Assembly (NCBI GenBank): GCA_963745835.1
Contig: CAVUZH010000024.1
Coordinates: forward strand, 329,558-393,557
Reading direction: 5' to 3'
Length of the DNA stretch: 64,000 nt
Origin: an uncultured delta proteobacterium
GTDB lineage: Bacteria; Desulfobacterota; Binatia; UBA9968
The notes beneath the pieces were generated by a model. That model saw nothing but the letters and a program-made list of their open reading frames with translations, was not told the origin of the DNA and did not search any database. The position numbers were made by a program, and so were the translations under genes. This document shows, piece by piece, positions 1 through 18,237 of this stretch (the first letter of the stretch is position 1; every line of letters begins with the position of its first letter).

Positions 1-523
1 AAGGCTGCCATGCAGCCCGCAGCGGCCGAATACATTGCGCCGACTGAATGTCTTCTGTGACGATTTGGGTCATCCCTTCGAGCAAACCCTCTTCCAGCAA
101 AGCATAAACCGTAGCTCTCAACGAATTCGATTTACCCGGCGGATGTGAAAACAGATGAACCGCCTCGTGCAAGGCTAAGCCTGCTTTCGTCTGGTTGAAG
201 TTTCGCGCGGGAAACTCGCGCAGGAAGATCGTGGCATTCCGACGGTCGATAAAACCCTGGGCATGCGGCGGTGGCCGGCGAAAGATAGCGCTGTACGTTG
301 TCGCAAACTCGCCGTCGGTGACGATGCGCATCGGCCGGGCTGGGAGGCTTTTCTGATGCGCTGCAAGGTTGCGTTGCAAGTAGCCTTGCCACGGCGAGGG
401 ACCTCCCAGAATTGCGAAGATATGCGGCGCATCGGCCTCGGTGATGTTTCTTTCTGCCGAGTTGAACGGCGGCTGGAAATTGCACGCCGATAGCGGTTCC
501 GCCAGCGTGGTCATAATGTACAT
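1..523 (-). CDS. Gluzincin-type Zn metalloprotease-like protein, partial (runs off window); putative cargo
   Basis: Not in the ORF track. ATG at 523 opens MYIMTTLAEP... and stays open to base 1. Contains ALHEAVHLF (HExxH) and downstream LLEGMTQ (third-ligand Glu). No signal peptide. Confidence 0.75.
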   Translation of the reverse strand, partial: MYIMTTLAEPLSACNFQPPFNSAERNITEADAPHIFAILGGPSPWQGYLQRNLAAHQKSLPARPMRIVTDGEFATTYSAIFRRPPPHAQGFIDRRNATIFLREFPARNFNQTKAGLALHEAVHLFSHPPGKSNSLRATVYALLEEGLLEGMTQIVTEDIQSAQCIRPLRAAWQP

Positions 524-699
524 GAGATCGCTCTATCCCGTCGGCCGTCAATATGCCTCTCCTGGCGCGGAACCGGACGCATTGACCGGCGAAGTGTCGT
601 CGGTTCTTCGCCTGATACCGATATTGAAGAAACATTCACGCTGACGTGGTGAATTCATAAAATTTGGCAAAACGATACTTCTTGTCGGTTGCTCGATGG

Positions 700-1317
700 C
701 TAAATCGTCTGAGAACCACTCACGAAGAATTCAATCACCACCGATCGGTTATTCGCCCTTGTCGCAACGGTCGAATTTTCCGTCAAATAGGTTTGAGGCG
801 GCGCGGCGATTACCGCCATGACACGCGACCGTGCGCTTTTTCCGAGCAGTCGAAAAACGTTTTGGGCTCTGCCTCTGCGCAAAAACAAGTTCCGGCGTTC
901 AACATCCACGCAATCGCTGTAGCCGACAATGCGGAAAAATAATGACTTGTCGGTTTCAAATCGATTCAGGTGATCTCTTAAAAGCTGTTCATTTCTCGCG
1001 GCCAGCTTGACGTGCCGCCAATCCACACCGAAATCACGGATTACCAAATATCGGCACGAGACCACGACGTTTGGCAGCACCTGTCCCGGTTGTACCAAAA
1101 CGACGTCCGGCGTCAGATGTCCCGCCGCAGTGCGTGAGATGGCAATCTCTTGCGCCTCATATGAAAAACAAGTGCTGCTTTTAATCTTGCCAAGTTCAGG
1201 ACACCAGTGTTTTGGCACCAGCGGGTTTGTCGGCATCCGGGCGGGCGGTGTTCCTGGGACTACGGGCTGCGGCAAAGGGCCGCGAGGCTGTCCGAGACCG
1301 TTTAAATGGATATACAT
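700..1317 (-). CDS. OmpA-like (peptidoglycan-binding fold) domain protein with Pro-rich leader; putative cargo
   Basis: AAGGAG RBS; begins MYIHLNGLGQP. C-terminal RIVGYSDC...NLFLRRGRAQNV...N.T...RANNRSVVIEF fits the OmpA_C pattern. Confidence 0.75.
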   Translation of the reverse strand: MYIHLNGLGQPRGPLPQPVVPGTPPARMPTNPLVPKHWCPELGKIKSSTCFSYEAQEIAISRTAAGHLTPDVVLVQPGQVLPNVVVSCRYLVIRDFGVDWRHVKLAARNEQLLRDHLNRFETDKSLFFRIVGYSDCVDVERRNLFLRRGRAQNVFRLLGKSARSRVMAVIAAPPQTYLTENSTVATRANNRSVVIEFFVSGSQTI

Positions 1318-1440
1318 GAATTCGCTTCTCCTTTATCGCATCCCTTGTAACCTCGAAGTCGTTTGGCTCGGCTCCGACTCCGTTTGTTCGGAGTTAATTT
1401 TGTCTCACTAGCCAATTTCCAGTTCAAAGATGGGCCTCGC

Positions 1441-16141: not shown

Positions 16142-16233
16142 GTTCGGGGCGTGCGTAATAACGAGACGAACCCTAGCAATTTTCGATAGCTGGGCTCTGC
16201 GCAGGTTTACGTCGTTGGAAGCAGCTAAGACGA

Positions 16234-16287
16234 TGCAGAAAAAATATTCCGGTTCGTATCATGATTTTCCGGAAGACTCTTTCTGCA
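16234..16287. promoter_or_regulatory. Candidate bEBP enhancer: paired palindromic sites
   Basis: CAGAA-N6-TTCCG (16236-16251) and CGGAA-N6-TTCTG (16270-16285) are mutually inverted, 95-145 bp upstream of the -24 box. Confidence 0.6.
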
Positions 16288-16587
16288 GGCGGGGAAAAAA
16301 CTCGAGCGGCGCATTGCTGGCGTGCTTTGCGTAAATTCTGTAACCGATACTCCTGCAACCCCGGAGCTGTGATAGTCAAACCCCGTGTTATTCGCTTTTT
16401 TCAAATGGGAATAACATTGCAATGCGCCTTCATTCGACCGTTGTAGTGCGAGCATGCGTCGGGGAAGCTGTGAAAAAATCCCCCCTGATCTCCCTTTACA
16501 AAGGCAGAACGAAAACCGCGCGATCGATCATAGGTTAGGATGCAGGAATCCGAATTGCCGCGGCACCAACATCTAAACGGCGCCAGT

Positions 16588-18237
16588 CTAGCGGTCAACG
16601 GTAGAGTTCAGGTGGTACTTGCGCAGTTTGTTATAAACGCTGCGCGACGTGATACCAAGAAGGCGTGCGGTTTGGGACTGGTTGCCGCGTGTCTTGCGGA
16701 GCGCTGCCTCAAGGAGAAGCTTTTCACAAGAAGCAAGCGACCCATTGAGCCGCCAGTTGTTCGCATCCAGCAACCTGACAACGGACGAAGTCACCTCGCG
16801 CTGTGGCGACGACGCCAGCGGACGATCATCAACGGATCGCGGCGGCCCGTGAGATTCTTCTCGCAATGCAGGCTGCCAGCGCGATAGTTGTTGCAAAATC
16901 TCCGGCGGCAGATCAGCCAGAGTGAGAGGGGCAATATCGTCCTTTTTAACCAGCGCCTGCCTGACGATATTCTCCAGTTGCCTCACGTTGCCGGGCAGTC
17001 CGGCTTCTGCGAGCGCTTCAATGAACTCGTCTTCGACAGACAGCGGCAGCGCCGGTGCGAGGGCGCGATACTTCTGAAAAAAATAATCAACCAGCGGTCT
17101 AATGTCCCCCGGTCTTTCCCGCAATGACGGAGTATGGATCGACAGTACGTTGAGCCGGTAAAAAAGATCTTCGCGAAAGTTCTTTTCTTTCACCATCTGC
17201 TCGAGAGCCCGGTTGGTTGCGGCAATGACTCTTACATCGACGGACGTTTCGTCGTCCTCGCCAACGCCCAAGACGGTCTTTTCTTGCAGCATGCGCAACA
17301 GCTTGGACTGTAGCCCATCCTCCAGTTCGCCGATTTCGTCAAGAAAGAGAATTCCGCCATGCGCGGAACGAACCAGGCCTTTTCGATCGCGATTCGCACC
17401 CGTGAATGCGCCGCGTATGTGGCCGAATAGTTCACTTTCAGCTAAGCCCGCGCTGATGGCGCCGCAATTGACTGCGACGAAAGGGCCGCTGCGGCGTTTC
17501 GGGTCTAAGGCATGAATAGCATGGGCCAACAGTTCCTTGCCCGTACCAGTCTCACCCGTAAGCAGGATGGGGAGGTCGCTAAGAACACTGACTCGGAGAA
17601 CTGTGCGAAACACCGCCAGCATTGATTGGCTTTCCCCAACAATCCCCGCCTGGATCATATTCTCTTTGATGCATCGCTCATCCTCCTCCCGTCGTGCTTC
17701 GGCCTGAAAGAGCTGAACGAGCAGCTGGAAAAGTTCGGACTCAAAATCTGATCTCGAGCTATCCAACAAATTGGATGCGCCGGCTACAAGGGGCAAGCAG
17801 CGAGTCCGTATCGGCCAATTGTGAGCTCCGTCTGCATAAGCCAATATGCCAAGTCCGGAGCCTTTAAGAGCATGCAGAGCGTCCAGCAGAGATGCGTTTG
17901 GGCCAAGCTCGTCGTCCAATGCGACCAGAAGAACATTGGCGCCAGACGTGGCGCGCGCTCCTCCGACTTCGTTGATATCACTAAGCCACCTAGGGGTAGC
18001 GCCGCACTGCGCGATGATTTGCTCAAGGCGCGAGCGGTTAAGGTCCCCACGATCAAGCAGCATAATCGTAGGGGGTGAACTATGCGTGGGTATTAGGTTG
18101 GAATTTGACCGATAGTCTGCGGGAGAACTTGACAGAGCTTTCGGCTTGGTTGGCTGACTCATCGGCACGCTGGTCATCTTTCGGCGTGTGCGTAACTTCG
18201 AAGCTGTGATCAAAGCTGATCGCATCGGTGTCGACAC
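16588..18237 (-). CDS. sigma54-dependent enhancer-binding activator (AAA+, Fis-type HTH, degenerate receiver-like N-terminus)
   Basis: GETGTGKE, GAFTGA, LFLDEIGE, FREDLFYRL, PGNVRQLEN, GNQSQTARLLGI. True start is uncertain (18162 or 18063 possible). Confidence 0.95.
   Translation of the reverse strand: MSTPMRSALITASKLRTRRKMTSVPMSQPTKPKALSSSPADYRSNSNLIPTHSSPPTIMLLDRGDLNRSRLEQIIAQCGATPRWLSDINEVGGARATSGANVLLVALDDELGPNASLLDALHALKGSGLGILAYADGAHNWPIRTRCLPLVAGASNLLDSSRSDFESELFQLLVQLFQAEARREEDERCIKENMIQAGIVGESQSMLAVFRTVLRVSVLSDLPILLTGETGTGKELLAHAIHALDPKRRSGPFVAVNCGAISAGLAESELFGHIRGAFTGANRDRKGLVRSAHGGILFLDEIGELEDGLQSKLLRMLQEKTVLGVGEDDETSVDVRVIAATNRALEQMVKEKNFREDLFYRLNVLSIHTPSLRERPGDIRPLVDYFFQKYRALAPALPLSVEDEFIEALAEAGLPGNVRQLENIVRQALVKKDDIAPLTLADLPPEILQQLSRWQPALREESHGPPRSVDDRPLASSPQREVTSSVVRLLDANNWRLNGSLASCEKLLLEAALRKTRGNQSQTARLLGITSRSVYNKLRKYHLNSTVDR

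What the first reader, a model, noticed from the sequence alone, without database searches (positions are those of the whole stretch)
1..18237. Candidate new system: sigma54-controlled, virus-capsid-like protein particle with a leader-tagged enzyme cargo array
Seen: one co-oriented, often translationally coupled operon. Order: bEBP, sigma54 promoter, small barrel, transglutaminase-like protease, amphipathic protein, small ORF, YGE-repeat protein, four genes with related beta-rich domains, M15 peptidase, two unknowns, then at least 7 enzymes with a shared N-terminal leader and no signal peptide. No integrase, replicase, packaging ATPase, tail/sheath, HK97 encapsulin or BMC gene is recognisable, and base composition looks host-like. 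Known: jelly-roll capsids with maturation proteases typify non-tailed (Varidnaviria-type) viruses, while described domesticated phage machines (GTA, tailocins, eCIS, encapsulins) derive from tailed-phage modules. Inference: a domesticated non-tailed-virus morphogenesis module that packages proteins rather than DNA, for delivery or compartmentalisation.
Basis: partly seen in the sequence, partly recalled or inferred. Interest (0 to 1): 0.95.

Follow-up and report, generated by a model that had tools for sequence, protein, structure and literature searches.

The report
Capsid-like shell operon with enzyme cargo
A soil bacterium carries a horizontally spread, sigma-54-switched gene cassette whose main proteins fold like the coat proteins of tailless viruses, followed by a changing set of cell-wall- and membrane-degrading enzymes that share a tiny N-terminal tag; no such system is described in the papers I could search.

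Summary
The operon is real. It lies on the minus strand, from 18237 past base 1 to about -2.8 kb. The order bEBP, sigma-54 promoter, small protein, transglutaminase-like protease, Arg-tailed protein, 113-aa protein, acidic Y/G/P/E repeat protein, P340, AB, C, D, LAS-motif protein, U444 recurs in 51 metagenome-assembled genomes of at least 9 phyla.

AB is one gene with two 41%-identical beta domains. [quoted passage not shown] TM-scores are low, and the cellular enzyme PHM also matches. C is a single-domain paralogue. P340 weakly resembles single jelly-roll capsids.

No integrase, packaging ATPase, att repeat or tRNA lies nearby. No relative turned up in viral, phage or plasmid collections.

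The downstream genes vary. They carry an M-x?-Y-hydrophobic start (64 of 155 against 1 of 101) and encode peptidoglycan hydrolases, zinc proteases and phospholipases.

The roughly 10 frameshifts look like assembly indels, because purA is split too. GC is not host-like: 58.0% against 53.8%.

Particle formation is unproven.

The parts
16588..18237 (-). sigma-54 enhancer-binding protein (bEBP): an unassigned N-terminal ~190 aa, then AAA+ sigma-54 interaction domain, lid and HTH_8
   Evidence: Pfam (PF00158 4.2e-64, PF25601, PF02954). Homologues lie upstream of the cassette in 29 of 51 loci.
16126..16141 (-). sigma-54 type -24/-12 promoter CGGCACGTCGCTTGCT, 280 nt upstream of the protease gene start
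   Evidence: the only match with at most 1 mismatch in the window; a like site in 22 of 40 loci, 21 of them 254-345 nt upstream, with 0 in both controls. rpoN is present in the genome.
15862..16179 (-). small conserved protein (about 74 aa in relatives). The true start is probably near 16080, because the promoter lies inside the longest ORF.
   Evidence: 41% identity to the L009 homologue over 16077-15868. Found in 26 of 51 loci. No family.
15299..15861 (-). transglutaminase-like cysteine protease (187 aa in relatives). In the window the frame shifts near 15385.
   Evidence: PF01841 1.3e-12. Cys-His-Asp invariant in 33 of 33. 66% mean column identity across phyla. Related soil contigs carry an extra G after 15387.
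14664..15320 (-). Gly/Ala/Pro-rich amphipathic protein. Relatives end in a poly-Arg tail; the window copy lacks the tail, probably because of indels at 14632-14672.
   Evidence: The last 15 residues have median charge +7 in 25 relatives.
14197..14466 (-). conserved ~113-aa protein (o117); the consensus starts MSYL, which is leader-like
   Evidence: 54% identity to L009. Alignment of 30 loci. No PDB or Pfam match.
13463..14162 (-). acidic Y/G/P/E repeat protein (candidate scaffold), with a conserved C-terminal NAGCPLPTN...TFKPLW. The N-terminal 26 aa are in another frame in the window.
   Evidence: In 37 relatives the median net charge is -31, with G 14%, Y 14%, P 13%, E 11%. Found in 47 of 51 loci.
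12385..13407 (-). P340: intact, acidic (net -26), the signature protein. Jelly-roll-like core with an inserted domain (residues about 85-225).
   Evidence: 2545 homologues, none with a Pfam domain among the 120 listed. AF2 pLDDT 76. Weak Foldseek hits to nodavirus and CRESS capsids and to the mavirus penton.
10925..12253 (-). AB: one gene of two tandem homologous jelly-roll domains (435-513 aa in 38 relatives), broken here by frame changes near 11781, 11334 and 11134
   Evidence: AF2 of the L009 orthologue gave pLDDT 85.7 and pTM 0.83. Foldseek best hits are STIV MCP (E 9.9e-6, prob 0.99), PBCV-1, faustovirus and D13; PHM also matches. The halves are 41% identical.
10136..10974 (-). C: single jelly-roll paralogue of the B half (about 255 aa in relatives; candidate penton). 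Arg-rich C-terminal tail. Frame change near 10640.
   Evidence: hhalign of A5 against A2: prob 100, E 3.3e-52. Frames. Tail charge +5.
9676..10093 (-). D: ~160-aa protein with conserved Cys residues, fold unknown. Frame change near 9853.
   Evidence: No relation to P340 or AB. Found in 42-43 of 51 loci.
9142..9679 (-). ~180-200-aa protein with invariant H-x6-D and H-x-H (LAS/M15-like zinc peptidase motif; candidate lysis or cell-wall enzyme). Frame change near 9377.
   Evidence: Invariant columns. No profile support. Found in 39 of 51 loci.
7655..9041 (-). U444: conserved unknown (350-530 aa in relatives). Frame change near 7860.
   Evidence: No Pfam or PDB match. Found in 36 of 51 loci.
7124..7609 (-). 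U161: coiled-coil-like protein, poorly conserved
   Evidence: tblastn with the window copy found 1 of 51 loci; blastp with the L009 copy found 4 loci.
6119..7090 (-). cargo 1: MAYVRIPEAD leader, Cys-rich GCGxxCxCxxCR motif, OmpA-like region
   Evidence: OmpA E 0.0046, below the cut-off. This family is the first gene after the core in many loci.
5057..5959 (-). cargo 2: MVYPRSL leader with YGEP, Aspzincin_M35-like zinc protease (HExxH)
   Evidence: PF14521 3.4e-8, above the cut-off. Orthologues at 51-69% identity in 4 loci; a fifth tblastn hit is a 210-nt fragment in L002.
4131..4985 (-). cargo 3: MAYQMIGDAP leader, HExxH protein
   Evidence: PF14521 E 0.0063, below the cut-off.
2695..4041 (-). 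cargo 4: MYIYDREPS leader, unknown domain(s), read in 2-3 frames here (one or two genes)
   Evidence: A relative lies in L033. No Pfam match.
1302..2187 (-). further co-oriented ORFs with an HExxH-like motif; no leader recognised
   Evidence: No Pfam match.
700..1317 (-). cargo 5: MYIHLNGLGQP leader; the C-terminus looks OmpA-like to me (my reading of the sequence; no tool shows it)
   Evidence: Orthologues at 39-67% identity in 3 loci. No Pfam match.
1..523 (-). cargo 6: MYIMTTLAEP leader, HExxH protein; runs off the window (263 aa in the genome)

Best explanation
This is a horizontally acquired chromosomal cassette, not a provirus. I propose that it builds a virus-capsid-like protein shell and loads it with envelope-degrading enzymes.

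Proposed mechanism (inferred unless the evidence fields say otherwise):
1. An unknown signal acts on the N-terminal domain of the bEBP, which then opens the sigma-54 promoter in front of the operon.
2. AB, a double jelly roll, forms the facets. C, a single jelly-roll paralogue, and/or P340 form vertices or an outer layer.
3. The Arg-rich C-terminal tails of AB, C and the amphipathic protein point inward and bind the very acidic Y/G/P/E-repeat protein, which acts as a scaffold or cargo glue.
4. The invariant-triad transglutaminase-like enzyme matures the particle, by cleaving or cross-linking.
5. Enzymes that start with M-x?-Y-hydrophobic are taken up: peptidoglycan amidases and peptidases, OmpA-like peptidoglycan binders, M35-type zinc proteases and phospholipases. 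They have no signal peptide.
6. The LAS-motif protein helps to release the particles by lysis, and the particles then act on other bacteria, like a tailless bacteriocin or viriform.
For: Fold.
- The AB model has pLDDT 85.7 and pTM 0.83.
- 21 PDB matches have E <= 1e-3. The top of that list is mainly DJR capsid proteins (STIV prob 0.99, PBCV-1, faustovirus, D13), with PHM from rank 11.
- C is a paralogue of AB.
- P340 hits single jelly-roll capsids and pentons weakly.

Conservation.
- The order is conserved in 51 loci from at least 9 phyla.
- P340 has 2545 homologues.
- The AB/C domain occurs in 430 clusters at 50% identity, in single- and double-domain lengths.

Host-type control.
- A bEBP is present.
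- The -24/-12 site is conserved in 22 of 40 loci, against 0 in both controls.
- rpoN is present in the genome.

Not a provirus.
- The window flanks hold housekeeping and toxin-antitoxin genes only.
- No att repeat of 13 bp or more and no tRNA were found.
- 101 upstream ORFs from the related loci gave 123 families, none in more than 3 ORFs.
- No relatives were found in IMG/VR, GenBank phages or plasmids. PHROGs and PADLOC gave nothing.

Cargo.
- The leader occurs in 64 of 155 downstream ORFs against 1 of 101 upstream ORFs, Fisher 6e-16. The genome background is 80 of 7546.
- Only 2 of 87 have a signal-peptide-like hydrophobic start.
- Pfam tally of the 87: OmpA 14, Aspzincin_M35 9, VanY 5, Extensin-like_C 4, PG_binding_1 3, Peptidase_M74 3, Amidase_2 2, Trypsin_2 2, PLA2 2, PLD 1, GH19 1.

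Charge complementarity.
- Tails are +3, +5 and +7; the YGE protein is -31 and P340 is -26.

Horizontal spread.
- 0 of 40 relatives and 0 of 400 genomes of the same phylum carry it.
- GC is 58.0% against 53.8%.
Against: - No particle, oligomer or packaging has been shown.
- Foldseek TM-scores are low (0.28 or less), with rmsd of 17-30 A, so the match is one of fold topology and not a good global superposition.
- The cellular DJR enzyme PHM matches AB almost as well (prob 0.98, E 3.5e-4). PNGase F-II and PHM also appear among the P340 hits.
- P340 evidence is weak: no PDB hit with E <= 1e-3 and 3 in BFVD. Its jelly-roll core is the low-confidence part of the model.
- There is no sequence or profile link to any viral capsid family.
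- The loop SGRE[LF]Q..PI.N.AGLG..G.RPF is strongly conserved in A, B and C. It could be a ligand site rather than an assembly interface.
- No membrane proteins typical of PRD1- or PM2-like virions were recognised (a crude test).
- In this assembly the core genes carry about 10 frameshifts. If they are real, this copy is dead.
- The lysis and target-killing steps are pure inference.
- All 51 loci come from MAGs, so no cultured carrier is known from these searches.
Confidence: 0.45

Rival explanations
1. The cassette makes no shell. It is a sigma-54-controlled cocktail of envelope-degrading enzymes used for predation, competition or autolysis. The jelly-roll proteins (AB, C, P340) are soluble carbohydrate- or peptidoglycan-binding carriers or enzymes of the cellular DJR type (like PHM, PNGase F or DUF2961). 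The M-x?-Y start is a signal for an unknown export or processing route.
For: PHM matches AB with prob 0.98, and PNGase F-II and PHM appear among the P340 hits. Four families of DJR proteins, three of them cellular, are described in PMC8812541 (passages read). A strongly conserved loop shared by A, B and C could be a ligand site. The cargo is rich in peptidoglycan-binding and peptidoglycan-cleaving domains.
Against: The best AB hits are capsid proteins, not enzymes. A2 has no invariant His, Cys or Met, so a PHM-like copper site is unlikely. None of the 38 AB, 25 C or 41 P340 sequences has a signal-peptide-like start, and no secretion-system family was found. The combination of a DJR protein, a single jelly-roll paralogue, a scaffold-like acidic protein and a protease is the parts list of a capsid.
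Confidence: 0.25
2. It is the morphogenesis module of a still unrecognised kind of integrated virus or virus-like mobile element. Its replication and packaging genes are either among the unknowns (U444, D, o117, the small protein) or lie elsewhere. The enzyme array consists of virion-associated entry and lysis enzymes.
For: The distribution is patchy and cross-phylum with high identity: P340 is 48-63% identical across phyla in the full-length matches (6 loci of fragmented matches show 73-87% on their best segment), and it was found in 0 of 440 related genomes. GC is raised. Feature-based Atlas neighbours of P340 are viral clusters of unknown function (score 0.96; the recognition value was low, so this is weak evidence). 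PRD1-type virions carry peptidoglycan hydrolases (recalled, not checked here).
Against: No ATPase, polymerase/Rep or integrase was found in the window flanks. None appears among the 25 of 123 families shown for the upstream ORFs of the related loci. No att repeat or tRNA was found. IMG/VR (2.9 million contigs), GenBank phages and plasmids gave no relative. A host-type bEBP and sigma-54 promoter are conserved with the cassette. Three to five different toxin-like enzymes per locus is unusual for a virion.
Confidence: 0.15
3. It is an intracellular nanocompartment (an encapsulin analogue) that only sequesters dangerous hydrolases inside the producer and is never a delivery vehicle.
For: The shell evidence is the same as for the best explanation. 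The cargo lacks signal peptides. The N-terminal tag is reminiscent of targeting peptides.
Against: Peptidoglycan hydrolases and OmpA-like binders have no substrate in the cytoplasm, so storage without release serves no evident purpose. A conserved LAS-motif protein suggests a lysis step.
Confidence: 0.1

Closest known systems
[quoted passage not shown]
   Same: AB has two tandem jelly-roll domains in one chain and its best Foldseek neighbours are these proteins. A single jelly-roll paralogue (C) is encoded next to it, as pentons are next to MCPs.
   Different: No sequence or profile link was found, whereas all viral DJR-MCPs are said to be linkable by profiles (PMC8812541, passage read). The two halves are 41% identical. 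There is no FtsK/HerA-type packaging ATPase and no replication or integration gene. Control is by sigma-54. Trimer formation could not be tested.
Encapsulins (HK97-fold nanocompartments with cargo-loading peptides)
   Same: This too would be a cellular shell of viral fold, without genome packaging, with cargo enzymes encoded next to the shell gene and marked by a short terminal tag.
   Different: The fold is a jelly roll, not HK97. There are several shell proteins. The tag is N-terminal and only about 3-4 residues are conserved. The cargo is lytic enzymes rather than ferritin-like proteins or peroxidases (the encapsulin cargo types are recalled).
Tailocins, extracellular contractile injection systems and gene transfer agents (exapted phage structures, 'viriforms')
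   Same: This is a chromosomal, host-regulated structural module of viral type, with variable toxin-like genes downstream and probably lysis-dependent release.
   Different: No sheath, tube, baseplate, portal or terminase family was found. All of those systems derive from tailed phages. The viriform paper appeared only in a search listing (PMC9953437).
Cellular double jelly-roll proteins (PHM, PNGase F, DUF2961 glycosidases)
   Same: They have the same fold class, and PHM is among the AB hits. They are encoded in cellular genomes.
   Different: They are enzymes with active sites, whereas AB has no invariant His, Cys or Met. They have no accompanying single jelly-roll paralogue, scaffold-like protein or tagged cargo array.
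Type VI secretion antibacterial effector sets (amidases, muramidases, phospholipases)
   Same: The repertoire of envelope-targeting enzymes without signal peptides is the same (the T6SS repertoire is recalled).
   Different: No T6SS component and no recognisable immunity genes were found. A different tag and a different putative vehicle are used.

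Membership tests
Viral DJR major capsid protein (Bamfordvirae type) | Two jelly-roll beta-barrels in tandem in one polypeptide | tested here: met
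   The AF2 model has two beta-sandwich domains with pLDDT 85.7. Foldseek prob 0.99 to the STIV MCP; 21 hits with E <= 1e-3, led by DJR MCPs, with PHM from rank 11. TM-scores are low (0.28 or less).
Viral DJR major capsid protein (Bamfordvirae type) | Profile-detectable homology to other viral DJR-MCPs | tested here: not met
   PHROGs, Pfam and the PDB profile search gave no capsid family. tblastn against GenBank phages gave nothing. IMG/VR gave nothing.
Viral DJR major capsid protein (Bamfordvirae type) | Trimeric pseudo-hexameric capsomers that form a closed shell | not testable with these tools
   Three copies exceed the 1000-residue limit of complex prediction.
Varidnaviria-type virus or provirus | FtsK/HerA-type packaging ATPase, a replication gene, an integrase or att sites beside the capsid genes | tested here: not met
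   Window flanks. No att repeat or tRNA. For the 101 upstream ORFs of related loci, no recurrent family; only 25 of the 123 families were shown. The downstream far flanks of other loci were not scanned.
Varidnaviria-type virion | Single jelly-roll penton protein | tested here: inconclusive
   C is a single-domain paralogue of the AB domains. P340 hits the mavirus penton only weakly (E 0.012). Pentamer formation was not tested.
Encapsulin | HK97-fold shell protein | tested here: not met
   The folds are jelly rolls. No HK97 or encapsulin family in Pfam or NCBIfam.
Tailocin / eCIS / GTA | Tail sheath, tube and baseplate, or portal and terminase | tested here: not met
   No such family in Pfam, NCBIfam or PHROGs for the core proteins.
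Sigma-54-dependent operon | A bEBP with a sigma-54 interaction domain, a GG-N10-GC promoter and rpoN in the genome | tested here: met
Transglutaminase-like cysteine protease superfamily (PF01841) | Profile match above the cut-off and a Cys-His-Asp triad | tested here: met
   48.4 bits against a cut-off of 23. C104, H139 and D154 are invariant in 33 of 33 sequences.
LAS / M15 zinc peptidase | Profile match, and the zinc ligands H-x(3-6)-D and H-x-H | tested here: inconclusive
   The motif is invariant in 28 of 28 sequences (H98, D105, H198, H200). There is no Pfam, NCBIfam or PDB profile match. The motif definition is recalled.
Known anti-phage defence systems (PADLOC) | Any core protein matching a defence model | tested here: not met
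   0 of 10 proteins matched.

The most novel reading that the evidence does not exclude
This is the first cellular, host-regulated particle built from a double jelly-roll capsid-type protein. It would be the tailless-virus counterpart of encapsulins, GTAs and tailocins. It carries tagged envelope-degrading enzymes instead of a genome and spreads by horizontal transfer among soil bacteria of many phyla. Its DJR protein still shows 41% identity between its halves and sits beside a single-domain paralogue. It therefore preserves a young single-to-double jelly-roll transition, either an independent origin of the DJR capsomer or a cellular shell of the kind from which such capsids arose. A bolder extension, at perhaps 0.1: the Arg-rich inward-pointing tails bind nucleic acid, which would make it an ATPase-free transfer agent.
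Probability: 0.4. Interest if true: 0.95.

Novelty: categorically new. Interest (0 to 1): 0.86.

Why it matters
All described exapted viral structures in bacteria (GTAs, tailocins, contractile injection systems, encapsulins) come from the tailed-phage/HK97 lineage. A jelly-roll-based one would show that the second great capsid lineage has also been put to cellular use, or that it arose from such a cellular device. That speaks directly to the debate on the origin of DJR capsids (PMC8812541).

The family is large: P340 alone has 2545 homologue clusters at 90% identity. It is entirely unannotated, it is found in soil and rhizosphere metagenomes, and it carries a modular cargo of antibacterial-type enzymes behind a 3-4-residue tag. 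That would make it a candidate programmable protein container.

The claim is directly testable by expressing one intact cassette.

Tried and rejected
- Sequence-level annotation of the core gave nothing. Pfam, NCBIfam, PHROGs, PADLOC and PDB profile searches with A1, A2, A3, A8 and A9 returned only chance-level rows.
- hhalign found no relation of D to P340 or AB, nor of P340 to AB (prob 0.5%). A look-alike C-terminal pattern between P340 and AB is only an impression.
- Complex prediction with two copies of AB (residues 27-462, alignment A2) returned 'no answer' (score 0.01). I use it neither for nor against binding.
- The ESM Atlas gave leads only. The nearest neighbours of P340 are unnamed viral clusters (score 0.96, low recognition value), and PRD1 P3/P2 families appear only at 0.77. 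For AB only unnamed clusters came up.
- A coverage measure based on long ORFs did not discriminate frameshifted regions.
- I considered pseudogenisation of this copy and think it less likely. Related soil contigs differ by indels at the shift sites: an extra G after 15387 in 2 runs, and 2-5 gaps per contig over 8.4-12.3 kb. Three of 9 shift sites lie at T5-T6 runs. The housekeeping gene purA is split in the same way. Those contigs are 92-99% alike and so come from other strains, which means this is not proof.
- RNA-library contigs (X20) cover parts of P340, AB, YGE and the protease gene. DNA carry-over cannot be excluded, so this is only a hint of expression. Parts of the stretch have no cover in some runs, and that is no evidence of absence.
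- Two other clusters of M-x?-Y starts in the genome (C18, C13) proved to be internal methionines of solute-binding-like (my reading) and pilus-type genes (my reading).
- The hydrophobic-G-E/Q-P motif after the leader occurs in only 17 of 87 proteins. It is 5.7-fold enriched over the rest of the proteins, but it is not a general feature.
- Six literature searches, plus passages of PMC8812541, PMC13669383 and PMC5894146, found no description of this cassette. Subscription journals and supplementary files were not searchable.

Full report
WHAT IS THERE

The window is G000:C24:329558-393557. The finding is a minus-strand operon that starts with a divergently regulated activator at 16588-18237 and runs leftwards past base 1.

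Pfam recognises only a few of the genes:
- The activator: Sigma54_activat 4.2e-64, AAA lid, HTH_8.
- A transglutaminase-like protein: PF01841 1.3e-12.
- One downstream gene above its cut-off: Aspzincin_M35 3.4e-8.

All other core proteins have no Pfam, NCBIfam, PHROGs or PADLOC family.

THE CASSETTE IS A CONSERVED UNIT

The intact 340-aa protein (12385-13407, 'P340') has 2545 homologues with E <= 1e-3 among 5070 candidates. The 120 listed are 56-98% identical, none has a Pfam domain, and all that carry a name are 'hypothetical'.

A scan of one genome per species found 51 loci. All are metagenome-assembled genomes, labelled Acidobacteriota, Nitrospirota, Verrucomicrobiota, Alpha-, Beta- and Gammaproteobacteria, Myxococcota, Planctomycetota, Calditrichota, KSB1 and Chloroflexota.

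tblastn of the window's proteins on these loci gives one order everywhere. In the table, n is the number of the 51 loci with a match; contig ends limit these counts.

| Gene, in operon order | Loci with a match |
|---|---|
| bEBP | 29 |
| small protein | 26 |
| protease | 41 |
| amphipathic protein | 27 |
| ~113-aa protein | 46 by blastp |
| YGE-repeat protein | 47 |
| P340 | 51 |
| AB | 48 |
| C | 46-48 |
| D | 42-43 |
| LAS-motif protein | 39 |
| U444 | 36 |
| variable genes | differ from locus to locus |

Neighbouring genes overlap by 4 bp in the intact locus L009 (small protein/protease and AB/C), as expected for translational coupling.

A subtype (L033, L036, L038, L044, L046 and others) has a second, longer P340-like gene and a double-domain C, and it lacks the sigma-54 site.

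FRAMESHIFTS

Mapping the intact L009 proteins onto the window shows frame changes in the following genes:
- the protease gene (~15385)
- YGE (~14110)
- AB (~11781, ~11334, ~11134)
- C (~10640)
- D (~9853)
- the LAS-motif gene (~9377)
- U444 (~7860)

Several observations point to assembly indels:
- Short-read soil contigs that are 92-99% alike differ by indels exactly there. Two runs carry an extra G after 15387, and contigs over 8.4-12.3 kb have 2-5 gaps each.
- Three of the 9 sites lie at T5-T6 runs.
- The housekeeping gene purA in the same window is split in the same manner: profile positions 1-314 in one frame and 312-416 in another.

I therefore read the shifts as assembly indels, not decay. 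Polishing has to confirm this.

REGULATION

A -24/-12 element, CGGCACGTCGCTTGCT, lies at 16126-16141(-), 280 nt before the protease gene and just before the probable start of the small protein. It is the only match with at most 1 mismatch in 64 kb. The total number of loose matches (24) is not above chance (29.5), so position and conservation carry the argument.

In 22 of 40 related loci a site with at most 2 mismatches lies in the same segment, and 21 of these are 254-345 nt upstream of the protease gene. The opposite strand has 0 of 40 and internal control segments have 0 of 41. The genome encodes sigma-54.

FOLDS

AB is one ORF of 435-513 aa in 38 loci. The L009 orthologue folds with pLDDT 85.7 and pTM 0.83 into two beta-sandwich domains.

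Against the PDB, 21 matches have E <= 1e-3:
- STIV major capsid protein: E 9.9e-6, prob 0.99.
- PBCV-1 Vp54: E 3.5e-5.
- Faustovirus MCP.
- Vaccinia D13.
- EhV-201 MCP and Sputnik. Mavirus MCP and adenovirus hexon follow further down the list (E 3.7e-3 and 3.9e-3).
- Also peptidylglycine alpha-hydroxylating monooxygenase (PHM): E 3.5e-4, prob 0.98.

PHM is one of the three cellular DJR families named in PMC8812541 (passages read). TM-scores are low (0.28 or less), so this is agreement in fold, not a good rigid superposition.

The two halves of AB are 41% identical (E 2e-50). C is a single-domain paralogue of the B half (hhalign prob 100, E 3.3e-52).

A profile of this domain finds 430 clusters at 50% identity in 1.84 billion proteins. 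The 150 listed are mostly ~230-360 aa (one domain) or ~390-550 aa (two), with some shorter fragments.

P340 folds less well (pLDDT 76). Its inserted domain is confident and its jelly-roll core is not. It weakly matches single jelly-roll capsid proteins:
- Flock House virus and Nodamura virus, E 3e-3 to 1e-2, and the mavirus penton, E 0.012.
- CRESS-DNA virus capsids and a Tetraselmis virus protein, best E 1.7e-4.

D, U444, the ~113-aa protein and the small protein remain without any lead.

OTHER CORE FEATURES

- The protease-like protein is the most conserved gene (66% mean column identity) and its Cys-His-Asp is invariant in 33 of 33 sequences.
- The 'M15' gene has invariant H-x6-D and H-x-H in 28 of 28 sequences but no profile support. 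The name is a motif-based guess.
- AB, C and the amphipathic protein end in Arg-rich tails. The median charge of the last 15 residues is +3, +5 and +7.
- The YGE protein has a median net charge of -31 (G 14%, Y 14%, P 13%, E 11%) and P340 has -26.
- This complementarity suggests that the tails hold an acidic scaffold. Binding of nucleic acid is an alternative.

CARGO

Downstream of U444 the genes differ from locus to locus. Eighty-seven of them begin M-(x)-Y-(L/I/F/V), usually behind a good Shine-Dalgarno site.

- With one procedure applied to both sides, the motif is found in 64 of 155 co-oriented downstream ORFs of 150 aa or more (spurious ORFs included) against 1 of 101 upstream-flank ORFs (Fisher 6e-16). 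The loci are related, so the P value overstates.
- The genome-wide background is 80 of 7546 candidate starts.
- Only Tyr and the following hydrophobic residue are conserved. A Gly-rich stretch follows, and 17 of 87 have a hydrophobic-G-E/Q-P motif within 60 residues.
- Two of 87 have a signal-peptide-like hydrophobic start by a crude hydropathy test.
- The Pfam tally of the 87 is: OmpA 14, Aspzincin_M35 9, VanY 5, Extensin-like_C 4, PG_binding_1 3, Peptidase_M74 3, Amidase_2 2, Golvesin_C 2, Trypsin_2 2, phospholipase A2 2, and single cases of PLD, GH19, 3D, M15_3/M15_4, DUF2272 and thioredoxin.
- This is the repertoire of envelope-targeting antibacterial effectors. The comparison with T6SS effectors is from my knowledge.
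- In the window, six genes carry the tag, with starts at 7090, 5959, 4985, 4041, 1317 and 523.
- A class I methyltransferase without the tag lies co-oriented downstream in 20 of 51 loci, and in the window's genome at about -2.8 to -2.1 kb. The unit therefore extends beyond the reported coordinates.

NOT A PROVIRUS, BUT HORIZONTALLY ACQUIRED

- To the right of the bEBP lie an amidohydrolase, an MFS transporter, an RNA methyltransferase, serine-pathway genes, purA and ggt.
- To the left of the array lie an FGase-like gene, the methyltransferase, a CBM21 protein, HigBA and MNT/HepT toxin-antitoxin pairs, and then what I read from the ORF translation as acetate kinase (no family search was run on it).
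- No integrase, ATPase or replication gene was found.
- No direct repeat of 13 bp or more links the two borders.
- No tRNA lies between -20 kb and +30 kb.
- In the other loci, 101 upstream ORFs hit 123 different families and none occurs more than 3 times. Only the first 25 families were shown.
- Neither P340 nor AB has relatives in IMG/VR. AB has none in GenBank phages and P340 none in plasmids.
- The cassette is single-copy here.
- It was not found in 40 relatives (7 of the same genus, 17 of the same family, 16 of the same order), nor in 400 genomes drawn from the same phylum.
- Its core is 58.0% GC against 53.8 +/- 1.9% for the genome.
- The bin has 9.3% contamination, so mis-binning of C24 cannot be excluded, although the GC of the whole contig is typical.

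HOW IT MOST LIKELY WORKS

Shown:
- the parts list and its conservation
- the folds of AB and C
- the regulatory elements
- the tag and the cargo families
- the absence of viral replication and packaging genes nearby

Inferred:
- AB forms capsomers and, with C and/or P340, a closed shell.
- The Arg tails and the acidic repeat protein organise the interior.
- The protease-like enzyme matures the shell or the cargo.
- Tagged enzymes are enclosed.
- Release is by lysis, helped by the LAS-motif protein.
- The particles damage the envelopes of other bacteria.

I put the shell-with-protein-cargo core of this at about 0.45-0.5 and the release and killing steps at about 0.3.

The rivals are a non-particle enzyme cocktail with lectin-like jelly-roll carriers (0.25), an unrecognised integrated virus (0.15) and a purely intracellular compartment (0.1).

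COMPARISON AND NOVELTY

It works like an encapsulin, tailocin or GTA in concept, but it fails the membership tests of each. Against viral DJR-MCPs it meets the fold criterion only. The 41% identity between the halves and the neighbouring single-domain paralogue argue for a young or independent duplication.

Six full-text searches and three papers read in passages gave no description of it. Subscription journals and supplements were not covered.

I rate it as categorically new if the shell is real. The probability of the most novel reading is 0.4.

LIMITS

- No oligomer test was possible. A trimer exceeds the size limit, and the dimer job gave no answer.
- No cultured carrier is known.
- The P340 fold evidence is weak.

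Noticed in passing
window 26784-28080 (+): purA (adenylosuccinate synthetase) is split between two frames: profile positions 1-314 in 26784-27851 and 312-416 in 27676-28080. A housekeeping gene broken in this way points to indel errors across the assembly.
   Followed up: yes
G000:C24:321950-323861 (window about -7.6 to -5.7 kb; L059:12351-14262): Two toxin-antitoxin pairs (nucleotidyltransferase/HepT and HigB/HTH antitoxin) lie just beyond the left end of the cassette. This is typical of island borders.
   Followed up: partly
G000:C24:326789-327439 (window -2768 to -2118; L059:17190-17840); also 20 of 51 loci: A class I SAM methyltransferase without the leader lies co-oriented downstream of the core in 20 of 51 loci. 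It is a semi-conserved accessory of unknown target.
   Followed up: partly
L033, L036, L037, L038, L044, L046 (also L035, L039): A second subtype of the cassette exists. It has an extra, longer P340-like gene (389-449 aa), a double-domain version of C (431-460 aa in L033, L035, L036, L038, L044 and L046; L039's C is a 424-aa ORF matched only over its C-terminal part; L037's contig ends before C), and no sigma-54 site. A full-length bEBP is missing, or it is truncated to ~320 aa in L035 and L039.
   Followed up: partly
window 14197-14466 (-) and alignment A8: The conserved ~113-aa core protein has the consensus start MSYL, which is the same M-x-Y-hydrophobic start as the cargo. It may be a constitutive passenger or an adaptor.
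   Followed up: no
alignments A2 and A5 (AB residues ~166-193 and 390-417 of L009; C residues ~173-201): A long loop, D.(G/A)(S/T)GRE(L/F)Q..PI.N.AGLG...G.RPF, is almost invariant in all three jelly-roll domains (A, B, C) across phyla. It may be an assembly interface or a ligand or metal site; this is unexplained.
   Followed up: no
window 7090-7000 (-) and the first cargo gene of many loci (e.g. L009:16160, L012:16448, L042:16275): The first cargo family carries, directly after the leader, a Cys-rich motif G-C-G-x2-C-x-C-x2-C-R followed by E-W-Y. It precedes different C-terminal enzyme domains (OmpA-like, VanY-like).
   Followed up: no
window 1-18300, run X20: Contigs from a rhizosphere metatranscriptome library, 92-99% alike, cover parts of P340, AB, YGE and the protease gene. 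This is a hint of expression in nature; DNA carry-over is not excluded.
   Followed up: partly
G000 as a whole: The bin is 7.28 Mb with 9.3% contamination, whereas the seven same-genus genomes are 3.9-5.5 Mb. Part of the bin may belong to another organism.
   Followed up: no
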